Positions 586-64,000 of a stretch of 64,000 bases of DNA are shown here, piece after piece; positions within the stretch are counted from its first letter, which is position 1; the number at the start of each line of letters is the position of its first letter. This stretch comes from Mytilus californianus (Eukaryota). Location of the stretch: assembly GCF_021869535.1 (NCBI RefSeq), contig NW_026262712.1, positions 24,614,001-24,678,000 of the forward strand, read 5' to 3'. A program made the translations under genes and the position numbers. The notes beneath the pieces were generated by a model that had not been told where the DNA came from, ran no database searches, and saw nothing but the letters and a program-made list of their open reading frames with translations.

Positions 586-720
586 GATATAAGAGCTGAA
601 AACTTAAATTCACTGGGATTATGTGAATGACATAATACAGGTCATTCAGATGAAAATAATATAGAAGTCTATAAAAAGGACCAACCAGCAAATTTACTAT
701 GTACCGGATCGTCTGAAAAA

Positions 721-15619: not shown

Positions 15620-16032
15620 CTGAATTCTAATTATTCTATAGTTTTGTCCTCAAAACAATGAAATTGACAACTTGTCATTTAATTTGGTGATAAACGGACA
15701 TCACGTGATGAAATATAACATGCATAACGTATATAATTGTATGATGACAAACTTTTAATTTGTATTTGATAATCTATATAGTAGTGTCATTCAGAAAGCA
15801 ATCATAAACCTTAAATGATATCATACTTTATTAATTTCGTGTGTGTGAAGCATTTATCTAAATTCATCGGAAATTCTCAAACTAAAAACAATTATAGCCC
15901 ATGATATACTAGACCCTTTAGCGTGAATAGTTATATGTCAAAAAGGGTTTAAAAATAGTAAAAATGATCTGAGTTCAATGTCGCACGAGGGAGTTAAATT
16001 TTGAATGAAAAAAACATATATATTTACATTAC

Positions 16033-16545
16033 CTTCTATATGAATTTTCCAATCCCCTGTGTCAGAAAAACTTGTATAAACTCCAATCCCTTTCACTGCA
16101 AACTGATTCGTACTGATCCAGCTATCCAACGTATTTTCAGCAACGACAAGGCCAGTTCCATATGTAATTTTTCCACCGGCCCAACTTATCCAAAATGGAA
16201 GATACACATTGCAGTTAAGAATATTCCGAGAATTTAGATATTGCATATATCGACTTCCAGCGTCTAACGAATCGTTTATTCGATATAAAATACGCAACTT
16301 CTTGTTGAAGCTATTACCAAATTGAATTTCATACAATGGTTTTGATGCATTTTTGACATCGGAATTTGAAAGAAGAACAAATGCGTCTTTATATGACTTT
16401 ACTTCATACATCAGGGACGTTATTCCACCAAGGTCAAGGTTATACTGATTGATGTATGTACTATACTTTATAATATCATGTGTTCTTCGTGAAGATATTC
16501 CATGGCCACTATTTGGGGTCGATACAGTTTTCAAGATATGTACAC
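16033..16545 (-). CDS. Internal exon encoding a Methyltransf_FA (FAMeT-like, PF12248-type) domain, paralog A
   Basis: 513-nt open phase-1/1 exon (ttgtag|GT...GAAG|gtaatg). Motifs: YEVKSYKDAFVLLS, PLYEIQFG, LNCNVYLPFWISWAGGKITYGTG, GIGVYT...GDWKI. Confidence 0.85.
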
Positions 16546-17280
16546 CTACAATATATACAAGTAAAGACATAAGAAATTCACAGACCTTGTCGGTCTTCGA
16601 ATAAAAAAAAATCTACCATAAAGTGGCGCCCTCCCACAGATAAAATCTATCAAAATGAACTTGAAATGAAGGATTCCATATATTCAATTTAATAAGGATT
16701 AATTTAAGTTCGCGGGTTCAAATTTCATGAATTGAGAAAAATCAGTATGTTAACGTGAATATTCAATTTCGTGGTTTTGTCAAATTCTGCATACAAGCCG
16801 GTAAAAAAGGTGTACGTCATTGAACTTATAACTTCATAGTTGACGATAGTTAGTATGAAACAAATGGTAAAATTTGAAAAAATATTCATATCTAAACCTC
16901 CAGAAATTGGCAATAAGGATCAGTTGAGTATTTTACTTTTCGGTATTAAGTTATGAACGAACCCTTTTCAAGTATAACATTCCGGCCACTGATACAAATT
17001 AGTTTATTGCACTCAGTTGAAAATTATCCAACATTTGTAAAGATTTTTGTGAAAGTTTAGAAAAAAAAAATGGAGAAATAGCTGAAGTTTACCTTTCGAT
17101 TTGTTTGTAAATGAGGACATAATGACACGAAGGACTTGGTTGAACTTTGTCTATGGCATACATGTGTCTCGTATGACCATGGACTAGTTCGACTTGTTAA
17201 AGTCTCTATTGAAGAACTATTCGTTACTCTATTCCTCGATTTTGACATCACACGATTCGACTGATACGACTTGACAAACT

Positions 17281-31365: not shown

Positions 31366-32498
31366 GAATGAAAACATTTGGATTTCAAATACAATAATAC
31401 AATAACGAAGTTGAAATGTATTGAACACCAAAACTTTAAAAGAAAAGTTTTTCAAATGTGGTCATTCTGTCTTACTTTTCGAATGATATTAGGAAGGATA
31501 ATTTTGGTTTTCATTGCACGAAAACTTGAAGTGACTGCAATTGCAGATATTCAAATACTTTTATCTGATTCTTCTTATGTTGTACAGGGTTATGACGCGA
31601 CGTTGCATAATTTAAAAATAAAATTAAAAAAATCTACAAACACTGAATATATGTATATATCTAAATATTGACACAGCACTACTGATGAAAAAAACATTGT
31701 ATTTAAATTGATACAGATACGGTAATATAAACGTATTGACACATATTTCGGCTAAACAAATGAGATATTTTGTGGTCATCTGTTTCCAAGTACAATGATA
31801 CAGTTTGAAAGTTATTGGCGTTATATTGCAAAATGGATATTTATCAACTGATCCGTGATCATTAATGTCATAGAACAAAAAATGTCAACACTGAATGCGT
31901 AGGTGTTAATTTATGCAACTCAAACTGGCAAAGTATAATAGTCCGTGCGAAAATTTATTCAAAATGGATTATTGTTTTGTCTTTAAGATTTCACTGGTAA
32001 GTCGAGATTGAACTGAAACGGTCAGTTTTATACGAAAAAGTACTGAACAATGTAACAATAATATATATTCAGGCAAATGTCAATTTTCAGATATATTCAC
32101 TGTGTAACGTATAGTAGTTTCGGACTAGTCGCTTGCGGTAAGATAAGTTCTTCTTATTCAATTTTCAGCTGTCCAGTCATTAAATTCGTTTTTTACATTA
32201 TCTATGTACTGAATTTGTGATCAACTACTGAACAAAAGTGGATTTACTGCAAGATATATATCTAAAAATACTAAATTTGCAAACAGGTCACAGCTTAAAA
32301 AAATCTCTCAACAAGACAAAACGTTTAAAAGGGTTTTTTTTTTATAAAAAAGGGGTGTTCACACTAACATTCATTTACCCTGTTTACTTATGTTAAAGAA
32401 CATATTTGTATACATATACATTTTTTGATCTCTTATGTTAATAATGATTTGAAATAAAAGGTTTCTTTGTAAATTAACGTTTTATGAAGCATTCTTAC

Positions 32499-33002
32499 CG
32501 GGTATGAACAGCTTCAAGTGCCCAACTATATCATCTAATGTGGTAACTCCGAAACATTTCACCATAAACGGATCTATCCAGCTTGCTGTTACAGATTCGT
32601 TGACAACATTTCCCGAACCAATCATTATGTTTCCTGCCTCCCAAGTAATCCAGAAAGGTCTATAATTATTGCAGTTGACAATGTTTGGAGTATTAAATAT
32701 TTGGGTAACAATTGAACTCGGCTGCAATGATGTGTCATTCCTGCGTCTGATCAGTAGACCCAAATTTTGATGTGAACCGATTGTTATTTCATAGAGGGGT
32801 TTTGCTGAATCCAGTGTGTCAGAACTTGAAAGGTACAACACCACCTGATTGCATGCTTTCACCTCAAAGATAAAGGATCTTGATAAAACACTGTTCATAC
32901 CGTAAGGCCGAAGGTCAACCATGTAGTCTAGGATGTTTGCTTCAGACGAACTGCTTTGGACGCTTACATTTTCTGTTAAGATTTCGTATTTAACAGATAA
33001 TG
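32499..33002 (-). CDS. Internal exon encoding a Methyltransf_FA (FAMeT-like) domain, divergent paralog B
   Basis: 504-nt open phase-1/1 exon (ttttcag|CA...CCCG|gtaaga). Motifs: FEVKACNQVVLYLS, PLYEITIG, VNCNNYRPFWITWEAGNIMIGSG, SWIDPF. Confidence 0.85.
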
Positions 33003-34289
33003 CTGAAAAAAAAGACTATATATTAAAATTTAAAAAAAGTCAATTTTGTTTAAAGTAAAATAATTTCTAATAAAATAAACCAGTTAAAAACTCGTTCACA
33101 TGTCTGATGTCGAAACATACTTTTATGTTTGATATAGATTTCTGAAAATTTAGGCGTATAAGAATGTGAAAATGAACATGAACCAAATTTTGAAAAAAAA
33201 ACTGAAGTCTAAGAAAAAAAAAAAAAAAAACGAAATCTTAATTATAAAAAAAATAAAAATTGCAATCTTAGTAATAAATCACATGCATTTAAACCTGTGA
33301 CTTAAACGAAAATATAAGAAATATATAAATATACATTTGCATATGAAAAGATGTATATTATATATTACTTTTTTCTAACTTCATAAAAGTTTTATTTAAG
33401 TTTCGGATTATCTAACAGAGTGTTTGTTGTATATCGCTTTGGACGCAAAAAAATTATAACGTGTTTTTTCACTTTGTATACATATTTTTCCGAAGTCAAA
33501 CTGGCATTATTAGCTGAGCAGCTATCCAGGTGATGAAATAAATAACTAATATAATTTTGTTTGCAGTTTGTTCTACATTTCGTACAAGCAAAGTGCTGTG
33601 TAAACTTAACTGACTTAAGATTTTGAGTTTGATTTATGATAGAACTGTTTATGTGGTCAGATTTTTTTCAACGGCCAATATTATAAAAAATGTTCAGAAC
33701 TAAGCCACACCAATAATTTATTCTATCTACCGAGTTTCATTTAACCATCAGGCTTTAAGTTCTTGATTCTATATTTTTTCTACTTTTATTCTCAACGCGG
33801 TTTCAAACTCAGCGATAATTTCTGTAACTTGAAAAGTGACGTATTCAAATGAATTTTCTTTGACAAAAGATATCTTGAAAAGAACAGCTTGTTATAGCTT
33901 TGTTCAAAGCTCCAGGATTGTTAAGCCGAATTTTAAATTGGTTCCGCATTAAATTCCACAGTTCAAACATGAATTGTTTATACAAAAATTTCCCCTTCCT
34001 CCAGCAATAAAGACTTGTGTAGCCAAGATGGCCTAAAAAGCCGTTGGATATCAACAATCATCAATCAATCAATTCAAAATAATTATCTGTGTTGATGTCT
34101 TGACTTTTAACACTAATCTTTGCTTCGAAAGAGTCCCTATGAAAACATTTTTATAAACCATGTATTACATGTATTAAATAGAGTAGTTTTATAGTTGTAA
34201 TGAATTTTAATTTTGTAAAAAAGAGAAGAAAGATACTCAAGGGACATTCATTCTCATAAGTCGTAAACAATCTGACAATGCCATGTAAA

Positions 34290-45725: not shown

Positions 45726-45894
45726 NNNNNNNNNNNNNNNNNNNNNNNNNNNNNNNNNNNNNNNNNNNNNNNNNNNNNNNNNNNNNNNNNNNNNNNNNNN
45801 NNNNNNNNNNNNNNNNNNNNNNNNNNNNNNNNNNNNNNNNNNNNNNNNNNNNNNNNNNNNNNNNNNNNNNNNNNNNNNNNNNNNNNNNNNNNNN
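45726..45894. other. Assembly gap (169 N)
   Basis: Run of N. It lies in the predicted intron between the two PAN exons. Confidence 1.
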
Positions 45895-48299: not shown

Positions 48300-49425
48300 T
48301 TGAGTGGGATTCTACATGTATCTTCTATCCATGAATTACGATTTTAACTACGTTAGAACCAGATCTATAGATTAACTTAAACATATAATCATTCTTGCTG
48401 CTTATATTTTTCTCCGTTTTCATTGCATAAGCCAACATAACAAAAAAGGTATTTTGAGGACAATAGAATAACATTGGTATTTTCTTTCATTCATAAATAA
48501 AAATTACGCTTATATGTAGAAATGATTTGATATGAACATTAACACCTAATAAGAAATTAATACACAATTTTAGAGATTGTGTTGACTTATTGCGATATAT
48601 TACCATGACAATAATTCCTTGCTGCTTACAGATTGATCTATCACCATACATTATACATATATGTATTATTGCTCTAGAGTAATTTACACATGTAAAAAGG
48701 GGATGGAAGTGTAGTTACGAAATTTGGAACATATTTGCTTTCAATTGTGGGACATTATTTTGGTCTAGAGCCTATACAAAAGTTACTTTGCGTTTTTTGT
48801 TTTATCTATGTACATTGTGGTAATGTCTATTAATTCCAATGCATTTAAGCTAAAAAAAAGAGTCAAAGAAGTGCTTTATCGAACCTACTGATTTCAACAT
48901 ATAGCTTATTTGACGAAATAAGATAAAATAAAATAAAAATTTAAAATTACAGTTGCATAATGAGCATTGTTCATAATTGAAAAAAACATTAAACAACATT
49001 TGGATCATTAATCTTAGCGATGTAGAGAATCAAAAGAAGCACACAATGAAATATTGTGTTTGTTTCAATGTAACAAAAAAAGAATAAATGAAGCACGCAA
49101 TTGAACACTTTATTATTAATTTAGAATATAAAAATGTCATACACATTGTAAAGTTGGTCAACCTGGAATATAATTGATGCTCAAATCTAGACATGAATGT
49201 ATTAATGTTGAATACAAAAATGCAGCCACCAGTTCTTTTATCAATTCAATAAAATAAAAGGAGGACTTAGTTAAGCATCAATTTATATTAAATTGAATAT
49301 AGAATGAAAAATAATTTAATAACATTCCTTATATTTATAAATAATAAACAAATTAACAACACATTTGACCATAACGTATACTTTAATCGTTGTTGATTAA
49401 AAAAAAGTAAATATTTGTACATTAC

Positions 49426-50776
49426 CTTCTAAATATATTTTCCCCTCCCCTGTTTCAGGAAAGCCTGTATATACTACAATACCTCCCACTTCAAAAGGAT
49501 TTGTATTTATCCAATGTATTTTCAGCAACCACAGGCCCAGTTCCATATGCGATATTTCTGCCGGCCCAACTTATCCAAAATGGAAGATATATATCACAGT
49601 TAGTAATATTTGGATTATTTAAGAATTGCATATAATAGCTACCAGCATTTAATGAATCGTTTGGTCGATACAAAATTCGCGTCCTTGTGTTACGACTATT
49701 ACCAAATTGTATCTCATACAATGGTTTAGACGAATCTTTTACATCGGAATTCGAAAAAAGGACAAAAAAGAGGGACGAAAGATACCAGAGGGACAGTCAA
49801 ACTCGTAGATCAAAAACAAACTGACAACGCCATGGCCAAAAATAAAAAGACAAACAGACAAATAATAGTACAGATGACACAACATAGAAAACCAAAGACT
49901 AAGCAACACGAACCCCACCAAAAACTGGGGATGATCTCAGGTGTTCCGGAAGGGTAAGCAGATCCTGCTCCACATGTGGCACCCGTCGTATTGCTTATGT
50001 TATTACAAATCCGGTAAATAGTCTAATTCGGTAAGTCACATTCGTGAAAAGGGAAGGGTATTGAAGTTACGACATAAGGAACATATCCGATATCATCTGT
50101 GAAACGATTATTCCATAACGGTCAACCAACTCCTGATGGCGTCCGTAAAATTTACGAAGGAATGATTTCAACTTCACCATTTAGAACTCTTGGTTTAATA
50201 GCTTCCTTGTGAGCAGCAATCCTCTATCAAGGAAATCATGAAAGGAAACACAAGCCCGGGAATATCGTATCAATTGGGAGATATATACTCCGTATGCAGG
50301 CGCTGCTGGAATGTTGCTACATAGAAATGGAAAGTTCACAATTGGGAAGCTGAAATCATCTCTTTTGTCGTAAAGTTTTGATTTCAACCGACCCTCATTG
50401 TCAATTTCTAGATGTAAGTCAAGATATGAGGCAGACTTAACTGTATCTGTAGTATCCTTTATCTCTATTTCGATTGGATAGATTCGTTCAACATAGTCAC
50501 CAAATTTTGTATTATTTGGTGAGAGAACATCATCTATATAGCGGAATGTAGAGTTAAAGGATATTGTTAACTTCTTATCTTTCTTCCTAAGAAGTTCCTG
50601 TATGAAGACAAATGCATCTTTACATGCCTTTACTTAATATATCAATGAAGTTATTCCAGTAATATCGAGGTTATAGTCATTGATGGCTGTACTGTACTTC
50701 ATAATATCAGGTGTCCGGCGAGAAGATATACGTTGTCCAATGTTTGGAGTGGATACGTTATTTATGATATCCATAC
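49426..50776 (-). pseudogene. FAMeT-like exon of paralog C, inactivated by a nonsense codon, a PLE insertion and an 8-nt deletion
   Basis: Closely similar to 16033-16545 with both splice sites kept. TAA at 50634-50636 aligns with Glu in A. Insertion at 49767-50606 and an 8-nt deletion near 49508. Length check: 1351 - 846 = 505 = 513 - 8. Confidence 0.9.
49767..50606 (-). mobile_element. 5'-truncated PLE family C insertion (840 bp) with a 6-bp TSD
   Basis: GACAAA at 49761-49766 and 50607-50612. Frame FIQELLRKK...FRYIDDVLS...SASYLDLHL...LYDKRDDFSFPIVNFPFL...PAYGVYISQLIRY, then the family C tail. Confidence 0.92.
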
Positions 50777-51289
50777 CTACAAATAATATATAGAAATAAA
50801 TTAATAAATACATCAAGGGTATTGCCGGTCTATTTGAAAAAAAGAAATTGCATTCTGTCATAATGATTATGACTTCTTCCAGATCACGTATGTCCCGTTG
50901 ATTTTTAAATGAAAGGCACGACATCTGCCATGTATGCAGTTAAGTCTGTTTTTATCATATCTTGATAAGAAATCGTCAGTTAGCTTTAGTTGGAGGATAC
51001 AAAGTATTATTTCTATTTTCCCTTAAGTTTGGGAACGTTTCCTCTCTATGAATATCACCCAGTTGATACAATACCCAATATGTTACGTTAACTATCAAGA
51101 TTTCCTTTAAGAAATAAGTTATTCAGCCTGTAATTTTTATGGTACGGTTAAAGACACTTCGTCGAACATTTATGGACACTTTAATGACTTGGTTGCCTTT
51201 TTCCGTTTGAAACTTGTGTCTCGTAAGCCCATGTATTGATCTATTTTTGTTGTTAAGTGCCACAGTTCAACACTACATGCCTATTTTTT

Positions 51290-51425
51290 TTTAATGACCA
51301 GACAGAACAACAGCACTTGGGAGAGAAAACTGGCAATCGTAGTCAATGAAGACTCACAACATCGGTGTTGACAGATAAGCGATTGCTGTATATAAACTAG
51401 TTAGACTATTCGGCCACCGATGGCC
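51290..51425 (-). mobile_element. Degenerate tRNA-derived SINE-like head
   Basis: Minus strand has ggtggccgaatagtctaa (A-box-like) and gttgtgagtc (decayed B-box region). It does not fold into a tRNA cloverleaf. Confidence 0.45.
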
Positions 51426-53358
51426 CGTATATACCATTGATAAGTTCGATCTATTCAAGTAACTGACTTTGTTTCCTCGTTCATGACATCATCAAATGGT
51501 ACAGAACAAGCCAAGAAAACGGAAACAAAACCCAAAAGGTCATTAACTGGAAACTAAAGATCAATCAAAACTACAAACAAATAAGTTAGACACAAGTCAA
51601 GTAGAATCCAACATCCTTTTATCTAAGTTCGACCCCTCCCAATCTTTTCTTCTGTATTTTGTTCTTAAACAGTTTTTTATGTTATCGTCGTTTTTCCTAC
51701 TGGTCAACGCATATTTATTTACATTCCACTAATGGTTTGATAGTAACTCATTTCTATCTCCTCCACTGTTCATCTAGTTAACGCTGACTTAATTGCACCA
51801 TTATTAAAGCAGACGTGTTCTTGTTTTTTTTAATCACAGTTTGTGGCAAAACTTAGAAAAACTCTTATTCCTTTTATATTAGTTTACAAATTACCCTTAC
51901 CGTTGCTTTGAGGATATTTTGACTCTTACTAATTAAAATTTAATTAATTTTTTCAACAGAAATTTTCCCAAATGGAACTTAACTTAAATAATTCATTCTT
52001 ATATTAACAACAATAAGTATCTTTATATAAAAGGTTATTCAGATTTCACAAGTGAAAATCAAAACAACAAATAACGATTCCAATGACGATGTTTCGTGTT
52101 TTATTGTTAATTTTTCTATTTCTTACTTTGATATTTATTTGTTCCCTTTTTTAAGGTATGTATATTATCCACGTTATTCGGTATGCTCAAATCTGTAGTA
52201 ACGTTTAAGATTTTAAATAAACCTAATATATGTATAACTAGTAAATAATTAAGTCAGGGATCTCAATACAACGAATTACTAAATACTTAGACGTTTGAAA
52301 TATTTGGCTTTTTTTTTTTGAGAAAAAGCAATACAGAAATTGCATTATGTTTAGTGGCCATTTTATATCAGTGTTGTAATTTCTTTCAAAGCTTTGTACT
52401 ATAATGAGCGCATTGAATTGTCAGTAGAGTTCCAATTTAAACTGAAAGATGTATAACATCCAAGAAAATGTTACAAATTTAAACACAGCATGTGTAGATC
52501 TAGATATAGTTTGATGAAAACATATTTGCAAATGATCTTACCTCCAATTTTAACAACATGAAGACATAAAATTAAGATTTCTGAATGCAAAACCATATTG
52601 AATATTATATCAATAATTTCCTGTATAAAAATATGACCACTTATATCTTTTCTCAACAGTTCATTGCTTTTCGAAAAGTTTCAAGTATAATAATTGTCGA
52701 TATTAAAAACTATCGATAAATAACTGTCCACATAATTACAACAATATTAAATACATAATATCCATAGACATTTATCAATTTGTTGTAATAGTTCAGACAT
52801 AGACTTCATGTATTACGTACAGATAATATTAACCTTTTATGAGCGTCGCTAACATTTTTTTAACACAATTAATATCAATACCTGTAGATATTTACTTACA
52901 CGTCAAACAAATAATGACATTTTATAAACCCTAACACTTCGTTCCGTGTCCGACAAAAATGTCAACACATGTACACGTAATTACTTATGTTTGTCCACAT
53001 AATTAAGCTAAAATTGATACTATAGATATAACCGAAGATATTCATCGACTTGTTGTATTCAAAGTGTTTAGACTGGGAAAGTTCTGTAAATAGAGTTTGA
53101 GTTGATAATATAGTTTGAAGAAAAAAAAACGCATTGATGTTGCAGTTAAATTTAACATAATATTTGTACAACTACTGTTCCAAACTGTCGATAACGTGAA
53201 TTCAAACAAAGTGAACTTTACAGGAGTCAAACCGGAGTGATTTAGGTTTTTGCAGCATTGCAATTTTTGTATTAATACAACTAACAAAAACAGTTAAAGG
53301 GATACTCACAGTCGAAAATACTTCAAAGCTGTGACTGAAATTATCATAGAGGTCTTAA

Positions 53359-54054
53359 AGGGGCATTAACTACGAGATACATAAACAAATCAAATTGTGA
53401 TTTTTTTTTCTTCAATCATTAATGAAAGTGAAATAGTGAAATAATAATTCGCTATTAGCAGCCAGTATGGTTAAATTGTGTCAAAATAAGCTGAGGAATT
53501 TCGATAATGCATAATTCACTTGCAAGTGAATAATTCGACCTCATTACGTCCGTATTCATGTGGACTTCAATTTAACCTCTTAGCTAGTGATGTATTATGC
53601 ATGATTGATGCGTGTTAGGCTATTAAAGGAAAAAAAATATGTCAACACTGAAAGTGAAACAAAGGTAAGTCATTTGATTGACTGATTCGATCCCAAAAAA
53701 TTCTATCTTATACAGGTAAAATCGAATATCACTTATTTTTTTAACCTTTAAATTGAAATCAAACAGACATAGATAAATCCATTTGCACGAGGTCCATATA
53801 TCTTTTTATATTTATGTTTATGTTTATGTCGTGTTTAGTGACAATCGGATGTTTTCAGGGTCATTTCGATAATCAATTAGATGGCGTCTTGAATAAAATA
53901 CACATGAAACGAAGCTACATATTATCGAGCCGTTGCCCTGTTAATTTTCTATTTTAGACTTTTTATAATTTGGATAAATGTTTTAAATTGTTATAAATCT
54001 GATATGATAATTTGAGTCAAATCGGTGAACATGAATTAGACAGCTAGTGCCCCT
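53359..54054 (-). mobile_element. TTAA-flanked MITE (Kolobok-like), inverted copy of 27246-27915
   Basis: TTAA at 53355-53358 and 54055-54058, TIRs AGGGGCA and TGCCCCT, and internal sequence collinear with the other copy. Confidence 0.88.
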
Positions 54055-55680
54055 TTAAGGCAAACATAACGATCAAATGCAGTCTGTGTTAGTCTTGAAA
54101 CGAAACAAAACACTTCAAAACATTTGGATGACTATGACTATTCTGCTTCTATTCGTACTAAATTGATTAAAATTGAACCAGAATTGACTCCACGATACTT
54201 GTTTTGGAAACCGTAGTTTTGAATAAAATACATTCAGTCACTGCCCGTAGACGTAGTGTAAAATTGTAGGTTACGAATAATTTATATATGTGAATTTGTG
54301 TGCAGAAAAACAAAACTCTGGCATGTTCGTTTTTAGTGCAAATGAAAATTGGAGGACATGATTTATATTCATATAAAATGTGAAAGATACCAATGGTATA
54401 ATCGACCACTACAGTGCATCATTTACAATCAATTATAAGACGAGGAACAAAGACAACAAGAACAAACAAAAAAACGCCACCAGATTCAGACCACAAAACT
54501 AAAAATTTAGCACTCTAATATTGATCTCAATAAAAATAAAAAACTATGTAATTCAACTCTTAGTTTTAAACTTTATCCTTCAACAGATAAAGAAAATATA
54601 ACAGGTGTCTTATACTCCGTCCGCAATTTTTGAGGGAAAATCAAGAACAAGCTATGTCTGCTTTATCAAATTCTAATGTCGATAGGATAGCGAAATTAGT
54701 TTTCTTTTATTGTGCTTTTGGTTATCTTTCCAAAGTAGTGAACGCAATTTTGAAGTATTTTATTTCCCTCAAGTCTCAATTCAAGATATAATGACTAAAT
54801 AGAGCATAAAGGGCCAAATATAATAATGTTACACTTGTAACTGCAATTTGATATTTAGTGGAATGTGAGAAGAAATGCGTAAAGACTCCTACAAGACTCC
54901 TGATAGCATGCTAAAGACTGATTGTTTTAATCTAAAAAACAATTGTATCCAATTTTCATAACCTTTGCAGAAATACTGTCAAATTTTATGTTTAACGAAC
55001 TTGATTATACATGAGGATCTCACGCGGTCAGCTCTATTCTATCATCTATTGATTCTTTGCATCAATAGATTCGTCGTTTATTTTTAAATCTTATTTCATT
55101 TTTTTTTTATCTGAGGACCAACAAAATAACATTAAAATATAAAATATCTGCCGATTTTTTAAAATTTTCACTATGTATCAATTGTATTTTTGGCGTCTTA
55201 TGTTAACGTGTTAATTTCAACAGCTCGTATTTTAAAAACAAAACCAATTGCCCCTGTTTTATTTTATTTTGCTAGAAAATGACAAACCTGATCGAGATTA
55301 TCTTCTGATAGTACTGTCAGGTCAATAGTGAACTCGAGAGCTTTTTCGCTTTCTCTTCTTGTGACATTACATGACAAACTCAAAGCCTCATTTATCTGGT
55401 TACATAAACAAAGCCAAAGTGTGGTATACAATATGAAGGACAAACAGGACGGGTTTTTTTTTAAATGAACACAGGAATACCTATATATACCGCTTCTGAA
55501 AACCTACGAAATTCAAAAGTATAATTTACCAACATTTAGGTAAACACAACCTTATATTAAATGTATAAGATTTCAACCCCTCAAACAAACAGAAACAACA
55601 ATAGCAGACTTGTTTTTGTACTGTTATGAATCACAGTTTATGACCAAGCTCAGTAAAGACCCGTCTAAATTGCATTTAAC

Positions 55681-56990
55681 TTTTCTGATTGGGTTCCATT
55701 AATATATCCACCAGAACTCGAAATTAAAGAAACAACAGACATGGCTTCATCCGCCTCATTTTTAGACTTATACCTCGAATTTGACATACACAGTCATCTC
55801 AGTACCAGAATCTATGACAAACGAGACGATTTTAATTTTGAAACTATCAATTTCCCCCACCTTCGTAGCAATATACCAACTTCACCTGCATATGGGATAT
55901 ACATTTCCCAACTTATTCGGTATTCAAGAGCTTGCAGCTCCTACTCAGACTTTGTAAAACGTCACCAGTGTCTGAGCAGAAAGTTGATGAACCAGGGGTA
56001 TGTCAAAGAACGTCTCGTCCTTTTTCTAAAAAAGTTCATCGGAAGGTACCAAGAACTTGTTGATAAATATTCCGTATCAACTTCACAAATAATACACGAT
56101 GGTCTTGATGTATAGATTTTGCGTACTGACGTTGTTTATCATCTTAATAACGTGTTATGGTATTCTTTTATTTATCTTTATTGATATTACTTTTACTGTT
56201 AAGTCTGTTTTTTGAGATATCCATTTGACGTGACTCTGTGCTTATGTATCCCGTCATACTTTGAACGACAAAATTATTTTATTTATTAATATTACTTTAA
56301 CTGTTGAGTCTGTTTTTTGTGATATACATTTGACATGACTCTGTACTTATGTATATTGTCATACTTTGTACCACAGAATTATTTTATTTTATTTATCAAT
56401 ATTACTTTTACTGTTAAGTCTGTTTTTTGTTATATCCATTTTACGTGACTCTGTATTTATGAATTCTGTCATACTTTGAACGACAAAATTATTTTATGTC
56501 TACCTGTGCGAATTTCAAACGCGCGATTTTACGTCAGTACTTAAAACCTTCCATCCTTTATAGGTGGATTTTACATAGATAAATAAAATCGTATAATATA
56601 AGCAAAGTGAGGATGTTAAATTTGATGTATGCCTTTTTGTGCTTTTTCGTTACATTTGTTTGTTTTTATAGTAATTAAGATGATAACACAATGTTGACTG
56701 CTATACGCCTATTTTTGACATTTTTACCTATTGTGTCTGTTTGTTTAGTTCACGCATCGTTGTCAATATAATGGAATTTGATGCGACTGTCATACAAGTG
56801 AGAGGTTTAGCTAGCTATAAAACCAGATTCAATCCACAATTTTTACATAGGAAAATGCCTGTACCAAGTCAGGAATATGACAGTTGTTATCCATTCGTTT
56901 GATGTGTGTTTTTTTTATTTTGCCATTTGATTTGGGACTTTCCTTTTTGAACTTTCCTCGGAGTTCAGTATTTTTGTGATTTTACGTTTT
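55681..56990 (+). mobile_element. PLE family A, 5'-truncated: RT C-terminus (ORF to 56115) plus 3' UTR and tail
   Basis: FSDWVPLIYPPELEIKETTD.ASSASFLDLYL...IYDKRDDFNF...PAYGIYISQLIRYSRAC...DV*. No endonuclease follows the RT. Confidence 0.9.
56185..56495. repeat. About 105-110-bp tandem repeat, 3 copies, inside the family A 3' UTR
   Basis: The unit tattacttttactgttaagtctgttttttg...gtcatactttg...aattatttt starts at 56185, 56290 and 56400. Confidence 0.9.
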
Positions 56991-57099
56991 AATTGATCAA
57001 TTCAACAACACTTACCGTTATGTTGATAATATTTGTTTCGTTAAATAATCAAGAATGTTTTAAATATAGTGCCGAAATTAACCCAAAGGAACTCATTTA

Positions 57100-58289
57100 A
57101 AAAGTCATATTTAAACGGTAATAACAGTCCTTTCCTAGATTTAGATATTTCGGATTTACACGGAAACTCCTGTCTAAAATTTAGGACAAAAGGGAATATT
57201 TTTCGTTCTCTATTGTTAATTTTCCCGTTTTGGATGTTGATTGTTGATGTTCCTTTGGCACCATCTATATTTCACAACTAGTTCGCTATGCCCGTGTCTG
57301 TAATCTATGTATTACTGGTAAATTATTCCAGGGATTTCGTTACAACAAATTACTTAAAACCGTTACTAAATTCTTCCATAGATATAAAGATTTGGTTTCG
57401 AAGTTTGTTTGTATCTGTAGAAAACCTTTTTCAAACGGGATAGCACATCCTCATTTTTACGGAAATGTTGTTTACCGTGCCCGGAAATTTTGAAACAATC
57501 CTGGTAAACTGATCGATCCTTTAAATGAACTTATTCTTAATGGTTACAAATTCAACACTGTGATTATTGTTTTTATTGGTATTAATATAGATTTTGTTAT
57601 CAGTAAACTGAAAGCAAACTAATTATTATTGTTATATACATGTGTACATATACACATTCATGGATCTACAATCCGTCGATACCTATATCTTGGCATTGCA
57701 CATGGTCATGTGTTTCTCTGACTGTTTATGACGTCTTTACACTAAATCCATTAGATGTTGGATGTGTACTGATTGATAATTTAGTCTTAGGTGCATGTGT
57801 CTTTAGTTGTTAGTGGCTTTGAACTAGCTGTAAATAACTGCGAGTACTCTCGAATCAGTACTTAGTGTCTTTTTTGTTGTTGGGATATACAAGTACCCGG
57901 CCACGTCCACTCTGTGTTTTTGTTAGATTTATTTCTTTTTGTATCCATCTGATGAGTTAAACCATTTTCAACTGATTTTTTATAGTTCGTTCTTATGTTG
58001 TACTGTTTTACCACTGTCCCAGGTTATGGGGAGGGTTGGGATCCCGCTTATATATTTAACCCCGCCAAATTCTGTATGTATGTACCTTCCCCAAGTGAGG
58101 AGCCTGTAATTCAGTGGTTGTCGTTTGTTGATGTGTTACATATTTGTTTTTCGTTCATTTTTTGTACATCAATTAGGCCGTTAGTTCTCTTGTTTGAATT
58201 GTTTTACATTTGTCATTTCGGAGCTTTTTATAGCTGACTATGCGGTGTTGGCTCTGCTCATTGTTGAAGGCCGTACGACGACTTATAAC
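57100..58289 (+). mobile_element. PLE family B, 5'-truncated and lacking its extreme 3' end
   Basis: PFLDLDI...DVPLAPS...QGFRYNKLLKT remnants plus the family B tail, which stops at acttataac. Confidence 0.85.
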
Positions 58290-58985
58290 CATTTGACGTG
58301 GCTCTGTATTTCCTGTCATTGTGTTATTGTTCTATGATAATTTTTACATTCTTATCTTTCATTTTTACCAAATGGGTTTGTCTATATGCCTTTTTGTGTT
58401 TCTTTATACGTATTACGTATCTCTGTACTTATACATTCTGTCAGTGTTCTATGATTTTTTTTTATATTCTTGTCTTTAGTTTTTGCTCATGTACTTTGTC
58501 TATATGCCTTTTTGTGTTTCTTTGATACAGATGACGTGTATCTGTACATCCCGCTATGTTATTGTGCTATTGTAAATTTTTGTTTTCTTGTCTGTCATTT
58601 TTGCTTATGTGCTTTGTCTTCATGCCTTTTTGTGCTTCTTTGTTACATTTTGTGTATAGTGGTTAAGATTATAACACAATGTTAACGGCTGTACACAAAA
58701 TTTTTAACATTTTTACCCATTTTGTCTGTTTGTTTTGATTACACATCGTTGTAAATATAATGGAATTTAATGGGACTGTCATACAAGTGAAAAATTTAGC
58801 TAGCTATATAACCAGGTTTATTTTTCTCCACAATTTTCTACATAAGAAAATGCCTGTACCAAATCAACCAAAGTTGTTATCAATTCGTTTTGATGTGTTT
58901 GAGCTTTTGATTTTGCCATTTGAATAAGGACTTTCCGTTTTGATTTTCCTCGGACTTCAGTATTTTTGTGATTTTACTTTTTGCG
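58290..58985 (+). mobile_element. PLE family A 3' UTR and tail with 3 internal repeats of about 118 bp
   Basis: Starts with catttgacgtggctctgta. The motif tttgtctatatgcctttttgtgtttcttt recurs near 58378, 58495 and 58614. Ends with cagtatttttgtgattttacttt. Confidence 0.85.
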
Positions 58986-59380
58986 ATCCTTAATAAATAG
59001 AAATTGAAGGCGAACGCGCATGCCTTGTGCAGGGTGTGAAATCAAACTCTCTTTTTTTCCAGGCTAGCGATATAATAAATGGAATAATTTGGGCACTCGT
59101 AAACGAGCTTACTGTTACAAACATTAAGCACATGTTTTTTGTATAAGGCGATAAAAGTGACGTGTTACTCACATAAGCTGACGATATGTTACTAGCAGAA
59201 AGTGACCTGTTACTAATATACGGCGCCGTTTTGTTCACATAAGCCGACGACATGTTGCTAAAAGAAGGTGGCTTGTAACCAATATATTGCCGTGTGTAAC
59301 CTACATGTATATAGGGTGGGGACATGATGCTAACCCATGGTTATGTTTATGTTGAGATTAATAATCATGAAAAGACAATT

Positions 59381-59620
59381 TTTATTGTATATTTTTATAT
59401 CAACTCTTCACAAATGTATTACCGATTCATTGGTAACTACTAAAACGTATTATTTTGTGCCGACCTAATGTGAATTGTCATTTCCAAATGATTCAAACAA
59501 TTTCTTCATATTTAAGCTAGATCTATTTTATCAGTATAACATGGTGTGTACCCAACGACTGTGCTTTGTGTGCTCCTAATATATCATTACCATGATTACT
59601 TCCCTTAGATTTATTTCCGG
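59381..59620 (-). other. Putative 3'-UTR exon 4 of the Gly-rich gene, with AATAAA at 59381-59386
   Basis: Strong acceptor tcttttgtttctatttacag| at 59621, and a downstream AATAAA on the minus strand. Confidence 0.45.
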
Positions 59621-60546
59621 CTGTAAATAGAAACAAAAGATAAACATATATAACTGCATAGATTTGGTTCATTGTCAAATATGAAAAGCTCAGACATGTC
59701 AATATCTTATAAAGTATCAACATGCACATTGATCAAACTTAGATTGCAACATCTAACAAGCATGAATGAAATATAAAAATTATGTAATACTAGATACACA
59801 CAAATCTCATTAATTCTTTAGTAATTCAATAAACAAATATGGATATTAGCGTGTTTTTACTTGCAGCGTTTTTTTTTTAATCTTGCTTTTCCCGGTCATA
59901 ATTTGTTTTCATTTGTTGAGTTCTTGTATTATATGTTTGAGTTATAATATTTTGATATTGTTGAAATATATGAATTTCATATTTCGCAGTTTTTTTACAT
60001 ATATTTCAATGTGTGATTCAATTTTGAATATTGTATTTAAAAGAGTATTGACCATAACAGTAAACAATTTGACATCCTTGATCTATTTTTGTACTTTCAC
60101 ACCATCCTCATATTTGTTAAAACATTCGTTTCTTCACACCTGTTCTTGTTTATATGAAAATAAATTTTAATTTCGTTCGGTGTCTTTCAGATCTCAAAAA
60201 TAAGACTGTTCCTCTGGTATCTTTGGCCCCTCTTTTTCTTGTTTTTACTTTGCCTTACTAAACAGCGATTGACTTCTAGACCAACCGTCGTAATCATTCA
60301 TAAAAAAAATATCAATCAGTCTACAATTAAATGACGTCATTCAACAATCGATTATCACATGGAGGTTATTACATAAGCATTGTTACTGGAAATGAGCGGG
60401 AAAATAAACGAATGTCATGGTAATCTATGATATTATTCTAAATATGTTTTCTATAAATAGATAATTCTACAAGCTTCAATACATTTCGGAATATATGTAT
60501 ATACATGTAAGGATATGAAAGATAAAATTTACCTGATTTATACAGT

Positions 60547-60590
60547 CTATCCTATGCGACCAAGAATAAATTGAAGGAAGAAAAGCATGA
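60547..60590 (-). CDS. Exon 3 of the Gly-rich gene: hydrophobic C-terminal tail (I)MLFFLQFILGRIG*
   Basis: Acceptor ttttcttttttcag|TC (phase 1) matches the phase-1 donor at 61393. The exon ends at 60533 with donor CAG|gtaaat. Confidence 0.7.
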
Positions 60591-61009
60591 CTGAAAAAGA
60601 AAAAAATACAATGTATAGTTATAATTTTCCCTGGATGATTGTACTTCTACAATATTCTAGTCCATTCTTCAGATTTTTTATTTAGATATATATGAATACA
60701 GGGAACAAAAATCGTCACGTAGGAATCATCGGCGCTTTGGGAATGGACCCCGTCGTCTTTTTTCTAAATATCTATTTTCTAAAGTAACTATTTTAAAATA
60801 TTTTAACCTATTTTCACTAATTCAAAGTGTTCTTGCTGTTATCCATACGATTTTGCATATTTAGCTTCATAAAAACTTTGTCGTGTACCTAAAACGTTAT
60901 CTGAAAAGCATGAATAATTTATTTATGAAAATAGTAATCTAAAAACATTTTTGTTTAAATAATGCAATAATAATGATAATAATAATTAGAATAATACCTA
61001 TGTTGTAAA

Positions 61010-61150
61010 AGAGAGGTGAAAGGTACCAAAGAGATATTCAAACTCATAAGTCGGAAACAAACTAGCAATGCCATGGCAACACGGACCCCAACAACAATGG
61101 GTGTGGTACTAGGTGCTCTGGAAGGGTTAGCATAAGCCGGCATCCGTCGT
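61010..61150 (-). mobile_element. Decayed PLE family C tail in intron 2
   Basis: aaaagagaggtgaaaggtaccaaagagatattcaaactcataagtcg...gccatggc...ctctggaagggt. Confidence 0.6.
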
Positions 61151-61393
61151 GATATTATGTAGTAATAATATGCAGCAGTTTTTATAAATATATAATGTCT
61201 ATTCATTCCTGAATGTTATGAACGTCTGGATGGGCCTTTGGGCGTCGTTCCTTCATTCCTTTTATTTGTTTAATTACTTTTAAGACCATTTTCTCTTTTC
61301 TTTATTTATTTTGCCCATTTATTCTCTTTTGTAAACCCTATCTAGAACCTCGGATAGGATATATATCAAATATATACGTGTAATTGAACTTAC

Positions 61394-61802
61394 TGATCAA
61401 ATTAAAAATGCCTCCGAATCCACCTCTACCACCTCCGAAAAGACCTCCTCCAAATCCACCACCTCCACCTCCTCTACGCCTTCCTCCTGTTCTTGCAATT
61501 ATGGCTGGATTAACTCCCTAATTTCCTCCTCCTTGTCGTCTTCCACCTAAAAAGTAGGGTACCGGGTAGTAATAAGGGTAATACAAGGTACCGCCCCCAC
61601 GCCTAGTAGGACGATAACCACTGCCTTTTCCATAACAGTTGTATCCACCTCCGCCGTATCCTTTGCTGTATCCTCTGTTGGATCCACTGCCGTATGATGC
61701 AGTACGTCCATCGCCATAACTACCTGCTGATCTTACGCCGGCAATGCATACTGCCGCCAGGGCAACACAAACACACAATTGAATCTCCGTTTTCATTGTC
61801 AT
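61394..61802 (-). CDS. Exon 2 of a secreted Gly/Tyr/Arg-rich structural-type protein, with an in-frame TAG at 61518-61520
   Basis: Acceptor tttatttggtag| at 61809. Signal peptide MTMKTEIQLCVCVALAAVCIAGVRSA, then GY/GS-rich repeats and YYPYYYPVPY. After the TAG the same frame continues GVNPAIIARTGGRRRGGGGGGFGGGLFGGGRGGFGGIFNLI to the donor A|gtaagt. Confidence 0.85.
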
Positions 61803-62122
61803 TCGTACCTACCAAATAAAGTAATATGAAAAGTTTTAAAGATAAATTGTAATAGAAATGACGTATTTTCATTTTCTTTTTAAGCGATTCAATATATTTA
61901 ATAATAGTACGGAAGCACATGTGTTTGTTTTGGTAAAACACATGTGTTTGTTTTCATCAACAGAATTTTAGAATACCTGTAATGTTTAAAATGGTTTTCC
62001 ATTGGATGAAATTTGTCGCATTGCTAATCTAAACAGGTATTCTATGTATCGTATGATTTTGGCTCGTGTTTCTCGTGCTTGTTGTTTGATATAAATTAAA
62101 TGTAATTTATAATGTTATTATT

Positions 62123-62480
62123 CAAAGTTCTGCTGACGAGAAAAGACTCCCCAAGCTGAAAGCAGAGCTTTCAAAACCATCAAGGAGAAGAAAAGTCGTA
62201 CTGAACCTTACGCGAAGCCTTCGGCTACTGTTTCCAGACCTCCTACTAATACTGAAGATATGCCTCATCAACAGTACAACCAGCCGCCCCTTCGGAGGAA
62301 AAGTCGACAAGAGGCGACTTCCTATGACATGTGTTATGAATGCCACCAATTTGAACACTGGAGGACAAACTGTCTCAATAGAAACAACATGCAATTTCCA
62401 CCAAGGAACAACCCAGCAACATAAGATAAAAGATAAGTATCTTAATTTAGAAGATGAATATTTGCTGCATGGGCACATGA
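62123..62480 (+). mobile_element. gag-like fragment with a CCHC zinc knuckle (DIRS/Ngaro-like tyrosine-recombinase retroelement)
   Basis: SSADEKRL-(frameshift)-QAESRAFKTIKEKK...CYECHQFEHWRTNC (CX2CX4HX4C at 62332-62373)...NPAT* (62424). The family assignment rests on the EKR...AE.RA motif, recalled from memory. Confidence 0.6.
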
Positions 62481-63104
62481 ATATACTTTTTCGAACATGT
62501 CATTACTACACTGAACTAGTGACAAGTTCAGAGATAAATTATTAAACTTTTGTACGTGAAGAGTTTGTACTTTAACAGCGAGATTTTCCATTTGTGTGTA
62601 TTTCCTTCGAGTATAAATCTGAACAGCGATTTTGACTGCATATACTACCTTGTTTTATTTGATGAATATTTTTTCTAATGTCTCGAATCTTGAAACGATA
62701 TTATGGTAAAAATCATAAACAAAAAAAGTCAAACTTGAAATCTTAATGTTTTACTACAAAAACTTGTTTTATTATCAAAATATAAAATGATACTTTGAAT
62801 TTATGTTATGTTTGAGTTTTGAGCACTGCTAATATGAAATTTATATAGTTCAAACTTTTTCAAAGTATCTCTTTATTTTGATTTACCATAACAGCGGCAA
62901 TTGTAATCGTGTAAGAAATAAATTTTGAAACTCAATAAAAATCAGGTTTTATCATATAAATAATGTTAGAACTCGTAATTTTGACTTTAACTTACAAAAT
63001 AAAATAGTTTTTATGTCAGCGTGGTCAAATTTTAAATAACAATACCTAAAACTATCTATTTGTTTTCCGAGCTTAAAATGTAATAGTAATAGTTATTAAC
63101 TTAC

Positions 63105-63143
63105 AGAGATGGAGCTGTGGTAAGTGGTTGTTTTCACACAGTA
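63105..63143 (-). other. Putative non-coding exon 1 of the Gly-rich gene
   Basis: Donor CTCT|gtaagt at 63104. The exon begins about 27-30 nt downstream of a TATA box. Confidence 0.55.
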
Positions 63144-63162
63144 ATCCGGATACCTATCATCA

Positions 63163-63170
63163 CTTATATA
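63163..63170 (-). promoter_or_regulatory. Putative TATA box (TATATAAG)
   Basis: Spacing to the putative exon 1 and its GTAAGT donor fits a TATA promoter. Confidence 0.5.
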
Positions 63171-63943
63171 TAAGCAGATATCTATATCAACAACCAATCA
63201 AATTGCTTAAAATACGTGAACATGGAAAGGAACCATTTTTAGTATTTCCTTTGCCGCTAGAGAGTTGTACTTGTCTTTCATAGTAACGATTGATATCCGA
63301 CAGCTGACATATCTTTTTTTAAATTAATTGAGACATCACCATGTTGTGTTATATATAAAGAGCATTAAGACATTTTACATCTGAATTAATACAAGAACAG
63401 TTTAATAGGAAATATGTAGTTCAATCAAATTCCTGTTATGAACTAACATTCAATTTGCTTTTGACTGACACAGTGACCTATTCTGCTAATATGTATATGT
63501 TTTATTTGGTAAAATGCACACCAGTCTCAAAGAGAAAATGCATATCGACGACAAAAACTGAAACCATCACTTGTATTGCCAAGTATGTATGTAAGTGTCC
63601 GCAGTTAGTTTTGGAGGTTTCGATGACATATATGTGTCTTATTTCTTAATATTGAACCTACGGTTTTAGATTTTTGTGTGATCACTGTATATTTTCTCCT
63701 AGTCATACAAATAAACAAGTATCTATCATCATTCTGTTCATGATACAATTGATCTATTATGTTTGTTTTGTTTGTTTGGGGATTTTCGTTATGGTTATTT
63801 GTCATTAATTTTTGTAAGAAGCGTGGGTCTGTTCGTGTTATGGTGGACCTTTCTGTTCTGAATTTATAAACCTCTCATTGTGTAAGTTATAATCCGGATG
63901 CCTTTTTATTCTTGGTAAATAAAAATAACACTACAAATTCCAT

Positions 63944-63985
63944 GCGTCCGAAGCTTTTCCCTGGTTTTACCTTCATCAGGAACGC
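63944..63985 (-). ncRNA. Minimal type I hammerhead-like motif
   Basis: GCGUUC-CUGAUGA-A-GG(uaaaa)CC-AGG-GAAA-AGCU-UC/GGACGC. Stem I has 6 bp and the core is intact, but extra bases precede GAAA. Confidence 0.6.
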
Positions 63986-64000
63986 TCAAACCCAAACGTT

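What the first reader, a model, noticed from the sequence alone, without database searches (positions are those of the whole stretch)
59381..63170. Secreted Gly/Tyr/Arg-rich protein gene with one in-frame TAG in an otherwise intact 150-codon frame
Seen in the sequence: TATA, exon 1, exon 2, exon 3 and exon 4 can all be assembled with canonical, phase-compatible splice sites. The supplied ORF stops at 94 aa (TAG at 61518-61520). The same frame then continues for 41 codons of strongly Gly-biased sequence (GGRRRGGGGGGFGGGLFGGGRGGFGG), splices in phase and ends in a hydrophobic tail, IMLFFLQFILGRIG*. The part after the stop has no indels or further stops. Options: a recent nonsense allele (an NMD target, since introns lie downstream), a sequencing error, or programmed readthrough giving short soluble and long hydrophobic-tailed isoforms. 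The context UAG-GGA matches the first bases of the gammaretroviral readthrough site, which alone is weak evidence.
Basis: partly seen in the sequence, partly recalled or inferred. Interest (0 to 1): 0.7.

Follow-up and report, generated by a model that had tools for sequence, protein, structure and literature searches.

The report
Broken copy of mussel secreted-protein gene
This is one of four copies of a small gene for a glycine- and tyrosine-rich, predicted secreted protein, and the stop codon in its middle is absent from every other copy and individual checked, so it is likely an ordinary gene-breaking mutation (or an assembly error) rather than a stop that ribosomes are programmed to read through.

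Summary
In detail: a four-exon minus-strand gene of 150 codons with TAG at codon 95 (61520-61518). The readthrough reading fails. The stop is private to this haplotype. The 3 other copies in the same genome have sense codons there, as do 10 of 10 aligned homologs and 9 of 9 contigs over the site in 5 public runs. Run X1 holds the allele closest to the window, with GGG in place of TAG. The TAG sits inside a conserved x-R-V-x-P-A motif, so the part after it is normal coding sequence, not an extension. No structure or pseudoknot follows the stop. A clean frame after it is expected for a young lesion (P 0.73-0.92). Best reading (0.72): a recent nonsense allele in a redundant duplicate, likely silenced by nonsense-mediated decay, beside two intact copies and one fully decayed copy. 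A consensus error is not excluded (0.22), as no source reads were available. The family itself is unnamed; a distant relative confirms the exon plan and the hydrophobic tail.

The parts
63163..63170 (-). TATA box (TATATAAG)
   Evidence: Sequence; kept in intact copies L008 and L010, removed by a 28-nt deletion in the decayed copy L009
63105..63142 (-). Exon 1, 5' untranslated; start position approximate, donor GTAAGT at 63104
   Evidence: Donor kept in 3 of 3 other copies; transcription start inferred from the TATA distance, not shown
62137..62424 (+). Repeat fragment in intron 1 with a CX2CX4HX4C zinc-knuckle pattern (likely gag-like piece of a retrotransposon)
   Evidence: ORF list; high contig depth over 61846-62515; in L008 and L009, not aligned in L010; no Pfam hit
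61394..61808 (-). Exon 2 (415 nt): ATG at 61802, predicted 25-residue signal peptide, Gly/Tyr-rich repeats, YYPYYYPVP motif, polybasic linker, premature TAG, Gly/Phe-rich stretch, phase-1 donor
   Evidence: homolog alignment; signal peptide judged from hydropathy only
61518..61520 (-). Premature TAG, codon 95; other copies have GGG, GTG, GTA; the next codon GGA is AGA (Arg) in them
61711..61712 (-). Site of a 24-nt in-frame deletion (8 codons) private to the window haplotype
   Evidence: loose ends in X1 and X8 show the undeleted form
60532..60590 (-). Exon 3 (59 nt): 14-codon hydrophobic tail, normal stop TAG at 60549-60547, 15 nt before the donor
   Evidence: 4 synonymous vs 2 non-synonymous changes between intact L008 and L010 (Fisher p 0.02); same plan in L040
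59381..59620 (-). Exon 4, likely 3' untranslated, with a conserved sequence block in its first 100 nt and AATAAA at 59386-59381
   Evidence: exon-3-skipping frame is open for 32 codons here but stops after 1 codon in L040
49141..64000 (.). Part of an approximately 18-kb duplicated block (runs on to about 3.5 kb beyond the window end) shared with the intact copy 1.9 Mb away on the same contig
   Evidence: about 91-94% identity over 50604-64000, 84% over 49141-49766; flanks share only repeats

Best explanation
The TAG is a premature stop found only in this haplotype, and it likely arose recently as a nonsense change in one of four copies of a gene for a predicted secreted Gly/Tyr-rich protein, leaving a null allele or young pseudogene. 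Shown: four copies in the genome (two intact, one with many lesions, this one); a sense codon at the site in every other copy, homolog and contig examined; the stop falls in a conserved motif and the sequence after it is normal coding sequence in all full-length relatives. Inferred: the stop lies 124 nt before the exon 2/3 junction and a second junction follows, so the mRNA would be degraded by nonsense-mediated decay (50-55 nt rule, own knowledge); any protein made would be a 69-residue secreted piece without the hydrophobic tail; the loss is tolerated because intact duplicates exist. The intact protein is likely an extracellular structural protein (byssus, periostracum or shell matrix type), cross-linked through its tyrosines and held by its C-terminal hydrophobic helix; this function rests on composition alone.
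For: Genome search finds 4 copies. Codons at the site: GGG AGA (L002/L008), GTG AGA (L003/L009), GTA AGA (L004/L010) against TAG GGA. 10 of 10 aligned homologs have a residue at 95 (V 8, G 1, T 1) and Arg at 96 (these 10 include the two intact genomic copies). 8 of 8 contigs over the site in X1, X8, X7, X9 and 1 of 1 in X3 lack TAG. X1 holds an allele with the window's own 18-nt acceptor deletion and codons 52-61 (pieces 5, 6, 7; depth 22-34) and the only fitting piece over the site reads GGG AGA (piece 3, depth 20.2). The window haplotype carries other private changes, all altering the protein: an 8-codon deletion, V85L, R96G, T98N, G126R. The family breaks often: L009 has several stops, a frameshift and no TATA; NCBI models P0005 and P0012 read through frameshifts. 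Precedent: a myticalin pseudogene 97% identical to myticalin C3, with one nonsense change in exon 2 confirmed by reads (PMC5577615, passages); young expanded families vary in presence between mussels (PMC7653742, passages).
Against: The TAG was seen only in the assembly: no listed run holds the whole window haplotype (best share 0.63 of 41 words), so a real allele is not proven. The change needs three substitutions within 4 nt, or a compensated pair of small indels, relative to every sense allele seen; consensus errors can look like this. The excess of private changes in exon 2 is not significant (P 0.07 for 6 substitutions, 0.32 if the cluster counts once). Exon 3 is identical to the intact copy (0 of 44), as expected if the copy worked until recently. 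Nonsense-mediated decay and lack of protein were not tested. Contigs drop rare variants, and linkage in X1 rests on overlapping pieces and depth sums, not on one contig.
Confidence: 0.72

Rival explanations
1. Assembly or polishing error: the individual has an intact gene here and the TAG is a local consensus mistake.
For: No public run listed holds TAG (0 of 9 contigs). The nearest allele (X1) is intact. TAG GGA differs from GTA GGA (X8) by one base out and one base in, and from GGG AGA by two in and two out, in a purine run; five private changes lie within 41 nt (P 0.004 as independent changes, 0.09 as three events). Several near-identical copies invite mis-polishing (inference).
Against: The haplotype also has a clean 24-nt in-frame deletion and scattered private substitutions, which suggests a truly distinct allele. 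Mussels are highly polymorphic (1.73% heterozygosity in M. galloprovincialis, PMC7653742, passage) and broken copies are common in this family. Only 5 runs were examined at the site.
Confidence: 0.22
2. Programmed readthrough of the TAG gives a short soluble form and a long tailed form.
For: The frame after the stop is open for 55 codons and ends in a conserved tail. The context is UAG-G, the first part of the viral type III motif (PMC4615788, passage).
Against: The stop is conserved nowhere; comparative screens exclude such cases as recent nonsense changes (PMC5100048, passages). The 101 nt from the stop fold no better than shuffles (z +0.80; 160 of 200 shuffles fold as well) and hold no Watson-Crick H-type pseudoknot with two stems of 4 or more pairs (a 4+5 pairing appears only if G-U is allowed). 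Window-private changes after the stop are all non-synonymous (3 of 3). Two downstream introns would expose the mRNA to decay.
Confidence: 0.03
3. The allele still works in another way: transcripts splice around the TAG, or escape decay and secrete the 69-residue Gly/Tyr/Arg module, which ends just after a polybasic linker that may be a natural cleavage site.
For: GT and AG sites exist that would remove the stop in frame (for example 61591 to 61505, 87 nt). A polybasic linker precedes the site in all aligned relatives, so the short product resembles a possible processed peptide (inference).
Against: The candidate acceptors are purine-rich (2 to 6 pyrimidines of 15) and the skip would delete the conserved YYPYYYPVP motif. 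Cleavage at the linker is untested. The allele was seen once.
Confidence: 0.03

Closest known systems
Nonsense-bearing pseudogenes in Mytilus multigene families (myticalin C-PG; PMC5577615, passages seen)
   Same: A near-identical copy of a secreted-protein gene with one nonsense change in exon 2, beside working copies; 5' untranslated first exon, ATG near the start of exon 2, phase-1 second intron
   Different: Different protein family; here four exons; the myticalin case was confirmed by reads, this one is not
Hypothetical proteins of Mytilus galloprovincialis OPL20746.1, VDI08576.1, VDI59023.1, VDH89371.1
   Same: Same signal peptide, Gly/Tyr repeats, YYPYYYPVP and VRVTPA motifs; these are the only named homologs found
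   Different: No function assigned; three of the four models skip exon 3 and read exon 4 as coding, which L040 argues against; two read through frameshifts
Programmed stop-codon readthrough genes (insect and mammalian cases; viral type III UAG-G plus pseudoknot; PMC5100048 and PMC4615788, passages seen)
   Same: In-frame stop followed by an open, coding-like frame; UAG-G context
   Different: Stop not conserved; no downstream structure; the downstream part is constitutive in relatives and crosses an intron
Gly/Tyr-rich molluscan matrix proteins: KRMP, shematrin (PMC3191542, passages seen); prisilkin-39-like as a weak Atlas lead (score 0.77)
   Same: Signal peptide plus low-complexity Gly/Tyr-rich region that could be quinone-tanned
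   Different: No lysine-rich six-cysteine region; a hydrophobic C-terminal tail; no sequence hit to any named member

Membership tests
Programmed stop-codon readthrough | First stop codon conserved in orthologs | tested here: not met
   Sense codon in 3 of 3 other genomic copies, 10 of 10 aligned homologs, 9 of 9 contigs; criterion from PMC5100048
Programmed stop-codon readthrough | Leaky context (UGA-C, UGA-CUA/CGG, UAG-CAAUYA) | tested here: not met
   Context is UAG-GGAGUU; motifs from PMC4615788
Programmed stop-codon readthrough (viral type III) | UAG-G plus downstream stimulatory pseudoknot | tested here: not met
   UAG-G present; no Watson-Crick pseudoknot, folding z +0.80; no Rfam match at E under 0.5 in 59300-63300
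Programmed stop-codon readthrough | Purifying selection on the region after the stop in stop-bearing lineages | tested here: inconclusive
   Only one stop-bearing sequence exists; its 3 private changes after the stop are all non-synonymous, too few to test
Programmed stop-codon readthrough | Ribosome footprints or peptides beyond the stop | not testable with these tools
   No ribosome profiling or proteomics available
Null allele / young duplicated pseudogene | Disabling change absent from intact paralogs and alleles | tested here: met
Null allele / young duplicated pseudogene | Arose by duplication, introns kept, intact copy present | tested here: met
   About 18-kb duplicated block with unrelated flanks; L008 and L010 intact
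Null allele / young duplicated pseudogene | Stop more than 50-55 nt upstream of an exon junction (decay target; rule from own knowledge) | tested here: met
   124 nt to the exon 2/3 junction; the normal stop is 15 nt from the last junction
Null allele / young duplicated pseudogene | Stop confirmed in reads of the individual | not testable with these tools
   No listed run holds the whole haplotype
Null allele / young duplicated pseudogene | Loss of mRNA or protein | not testable with these tools
   No allele-specific RNA or protein data for this haplotype
Myticalins | Signal peptide consensus MKGXXLLLLTIXXALCMIXECEG | tested here: not met
   Consensus from PMC5577615 compared by eye with the translation
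Myticalins | Lys-Arg site followed by an anionic C-terminal extension | tested here: not met
   The 55 residues after codon 95 hold no Asp or Glu and end in a hydrophobic helix (mean hydropathy 2.15 over 19 residues)
KRMP | Lysine-rich basic region with six cysteines | tested here: not met
   Features from PMC3191542; absent from the translations
KRMP / shematrin-like matrix proteins | Signal peptide and Gly/Tyr-rich low-complexity region | tested here: met
   Mature part before the stop is 32% Gly, 19% Tyr, 10% Arg; signal peptide by hydropathy only
KRMP / shematrin-like matrix proteins | Mantle expression and presence in shell or periostracum | not testable with these tools
   No tissue data obtained
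GPI-anchored or tail-anchored proteins | C-terminal hydrophobic segment with a valid omega site | tested here: inconclusive
   Hydrophobic C-terminal segment in the window, its copies and L040; no predictor was run

The most novel reading that the evidence does not exclude
A newly arisen amber stop is read through at a useful rate, or escapes decay, so one allele makes both a soluble Gly/Tyr/Arg peptide and the full tailed protein: the birth of a readthrough gene caught inside a mussel population.
Probability: 0.03. Interest if true: 0.7.

Novelty: new member of a known kind. Interest (0 to 1): 0.1.

Why it matters
It matters little as a recoding case: a private nonsense change in a redundant duplicate is ordinary in mussel gene families. 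Two modest by-products remain. The family has no name or function in the searches made, and its public gene models likely have the wrong C-terminus, since they skip the exon that encodes a hydrophobic tail kept in a distant relative. It is also a compact example of birth-and-death evolution: four copies in one genome at three stages, with different copy sets in different individuals.

Tried and rejected
Expression: no RNA holder listed. RNA run X21, about 6 in 100 of it read, gave 244 reads, all on intronic repeats and none on an exon of this gene or a close copy; this says nothing on expression. Uncollapsed haplotype as the origin of the window and L008 pair: rejected, flanks share only repeats. 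Exon-3 skipping as the main splice form: in phase and open for 32 codons here and used by NCBI models, but it stops after one codon in L040 and changes frame in L010; judged secondary, not excluded. Pfam: 0 families for P0001, P0002, P0011, P0017. ESM Atlas: best score 0.78, below the useful level. Rfam: one weak match, E 0.59, below its gathering score. Conserved exon-4 block as a structured element: weak consensus fold, covariation term +0.4, 1 of 12 pairs with a double change; selenocysteine insertion also does not apply to UAG (own knowledge). BLASTP of the two exon-3 tails found no alignment: they agree in position, phase and hydrophobicity only. L041 showed no family motif in a gene context and was dropped. 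A search for further paralogs with P0017 found none. Paper searches for the motif YYPYYYP and for six accession terms gave 0 papers; supplements and subscription papers are not searched, and proteomic tables there could list these proteins. One search was too loose to say anything on readthrough in bivalves. Earlier scan notes: nothing returned. No structure prediction was run, the protein being low-complexity.
Full report
Observation. The gene is on the minus strand as described. TATA at 63170-63163; exon 1 ends at 63105; exon 2 is 61808-61394 with ATG at 61802; exon 3 is 60590-60532; exon 4 starts at 59620. The frame has 94 codons, TAG at 61520-61518, 41 more codons, a phase-1 intron and 14 codons to a second TAG: 150 codons. 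The window's only N run (45726-45894) is far away.

Copies in the same genome. A DNA search with exon 2 found the window and three more copies (91%, 89%, 74% identity) plus three short Gly-repeat matches at one other place; a protein search found the same four places. L002/L008 is intact (158 codons) and L004/L010 is intact (155 codons). L003/L009 has lost its TATA box and carries several stops and a frameshift. At the site in question they read GGG AGA, GTA AGA and GTG AGA, where the window reads TAG GGA. All six splice sites are kept in all three. The window and L008 share a block of about 18 kb, mostly 91-94% identical, with unrelated flanks; L009 shares about 8 kb, inverted. These are segmental duplicates, not one locus assembled twice.

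Other individuals. Of 24 runs listed, the best holds 0.63 of the sampled words; the paralogs alone account for 0.47 to 0.52. Six runs were laid. Over the stop site, X1 has 2 contigs, X8 3, X7 2 and X9 1, and none of the 8 has TAG (5 rows of the table of differences and 8 pieces were not shown). X3 has 1 contig there, also without TAG. These 5 runs come from 5 studies and 3 organism labels. X1 is the most telling. It has pieces that match the window's own marks: the 18-nt deletion at the exon 2 acceptor (piece 7, 0 differences, depth 22.3) and codons 52-61 (pieces 5 and 6, 1 and 0 differences). The piece that overlaps them across the site reads GGG AGA at depth 20.2. All X1 depth at 61510 (87.4 of 87.4) and at 61550 (72.6 of 72.6) shows the non-window base, which leaves no room for a hidden window-type allele at similar depth. 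So the nearest allele of this copy is intact. X8 has a further contig reading GTA GGA, so the GGA after the stop also occurs after a sense codon. Limits: contigs drop rare variants, the tool filters some records, and linkage is read from overlaps and depths.

Homologs. Searches found few relatives: 3 with the single protein, 4 in the 50% library, 9 with a six-sequence profile (only the 7988 best candidates were scored). The only named ones are hypothetical proteins of Mytilus galloprovincialis, so the window is likely from a mytilid mussel (inference). In an alignment of the window with 10 homologs (two of them the intact genomic copies; P0003, P0006, P0008, P0009, P0012, P0014, P0016, P0018 were left out as near-duplicates, unread or lacking the region), position 95 is Val in 8, Gly in 1 and Thr in 1, and position 96 is Arg in all 10. 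The stop thus cuts a conserved x-R-V-x-P-A motif, and the window alone has lost both residues.

Gene model test. A metagenome scan with the distant relative P0011 returned 2 loci, of which L040 holds the gene. It has GTA AGA at the site, the same phase-1 donor, a 72-nt exon 3 coding a hydrophobic tail, a stop 16 nt before the donor, and an exon 4 that aligns with the window's at 81% over 58 nt. Skipping exon 3 gives a stop after one codon in L040. No RNA showed the junctions.

Is the clean frame after the stop surprising? No. Only 17 of 495 single changes in those 55 codons give a stop. With the window's private intron rates (70 substitutions in 2731 sites; 3 frameshift-length indels in 2985 nt), the chance of no further lesion is 0.73 if the copy had been dead since duplication and 0.92 at the distance to the X1 allele. 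The window's private coding changes relative to X1 and the paralogs all alter the protein (an 8-codon deletion, V85L, the stop, R96G, T98N, G126R), but their number is not significantly above the intron rate. Between the intact copies, the Gly-rich parts evolve fast (dN/dS 0.74 before and 0.92 after the site) while the signal peptide and tail are constrained (0.19, 0.16; small counts).

Readthrough signals. Type III readthrough needs UAG-G plus a pseudoknot (PMC4615788, passages). The 98 nt after the stop hold 43 G and 9 C, fold worse than average shuffles (z +0.80) and give no Watson-Crick pseudoknot. Comparative screens drop stops present only in close relatives as likely recent nonsense changes (PMC5100048, passages). 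This stop was not found even in conspecific runs.

Mechanism. Shown: a private premature stop in one of four duplicates. Inferred: the stop lies 124 nt before a junction, with another junction behind, so the mRNA would undergo nonsense-mediated decay, while the normal stop, 15 nt before the last junction, would escape it (rule from own knowledge). Intact duplicates would cover the loss. Precedents: a myticalin pseudogene with one read-confirmed nonsense change in exon 2 (PMC5577615, passages) and widespread presence-absence variation in young mussel gene families (PMC7653742, passages). X1 and X8 show different sets of copies, in line with that. The main rival is a consensus error, since the change equals a compensated pair of small indels in a purine run and no source reads could be checked. 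I give 0.72 to a real null allele, 0.22 to error, 0.03 to readthrough and 0.03 to a working short or re-spliced form.

What the intact protein does. It has a predicted signal peptide, a Gly/Tyr/Arg-rich body (32% Gly, 19% Tyr, 10% Arg before the stop), a YYPYYYPVP motif, a polybasic linker and a 19-residue hydrophobic C-terminal segment. It likely works as an extracellular structural protein cross-linked through tyrosine, like the Gly/Tyr region of KRMP (PMC3191542, passages), with the tail serving as a membrane anchor, GPI signal or assembly helix. This is inference from composition. It is not a myticalin or a KRMP by their defining features, has no Pfam family, and neither its motif nor its accessions appeared in the paper library; supplements, which I did not search, may list it. 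PMC5549309 (passages) mentions a gill-specific glycine-rich secreted protein in another mussel; I did not test whether it is related. Papers not named above were seen as search listings only.

Verdict. An ordinary premature stop in a redundant gene copy. Interest 0.1.

Noticed in passing
window 59520-59620 (-), L040:2654-2745: The first 100 nt of exon 4, likely 3' UTR, are better conserved than the introns (first 41 or so bases identical between the window and L010; 81% over 58 nt with distant L040). No consensus fold or Rfam match; possibly a regulatory element.
   Followed up: partly
NCBI models P0003, P0005, P0006 versus window 60590-60532: Public gene models of the M. galloprovincialis homologs skip exon 3 and so likely carry the wrong C-terminus; P0012 uses exon 3 in another frame.
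   Followed up: partly
L009 (G000:C132:35358465-35358931): Older pseudogene copy: 28-nt deletion of the TATA box, frameshift, several GGA-to-TGA stops. P0010 ends at the same residue as one of these stops; whether it ends by a stop was not checked.
   Followed up: partly
runs X1 and X8: Individuals differ in their set of copies: X1 shows window-like, L009-like and L010-like forms; X8 shows L008-like, L010-like and a further, more diverged form that is not in this assembly.
   Followed up: partly
window 62137-62424 (+): Repeat fragment in intron 1 with a CX2CX4HX4C zinc-knuckle pattern, present in L008 and L009, not aligned in L010.
   Followed up: partly
window 631-2556 (+): 641-codon open frame with reverse transcriptase (PF00078, E 2.5e-10) and GIY-YIG (PF01541, E 7e-6) matches, the layout of a Penelope-like retroelement (name recalled).
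   Followed up: partly
window 15938-16612 (-) and 32482-33015 (-): Two open frames matching the farnesoic acid O-methyltransferase domain (PF12248, E 6.6e-16 and 8.3e-19), likely exons of another gene or genes.
   Followed up: no
window 62696-62936: About 240 nt of intron 1 are missing in L008 and in contigs of X3 and X8 (joint 62692 to 62937) but present in the window and L009.
   Followed up: no
G000:C132:80897064-80897261 (L005-L007): Three short matches to the Gly/Phe-rich stretch of exon 2, close together; probably an unrelated Gly-rich repeat gene.
   Followed up: no
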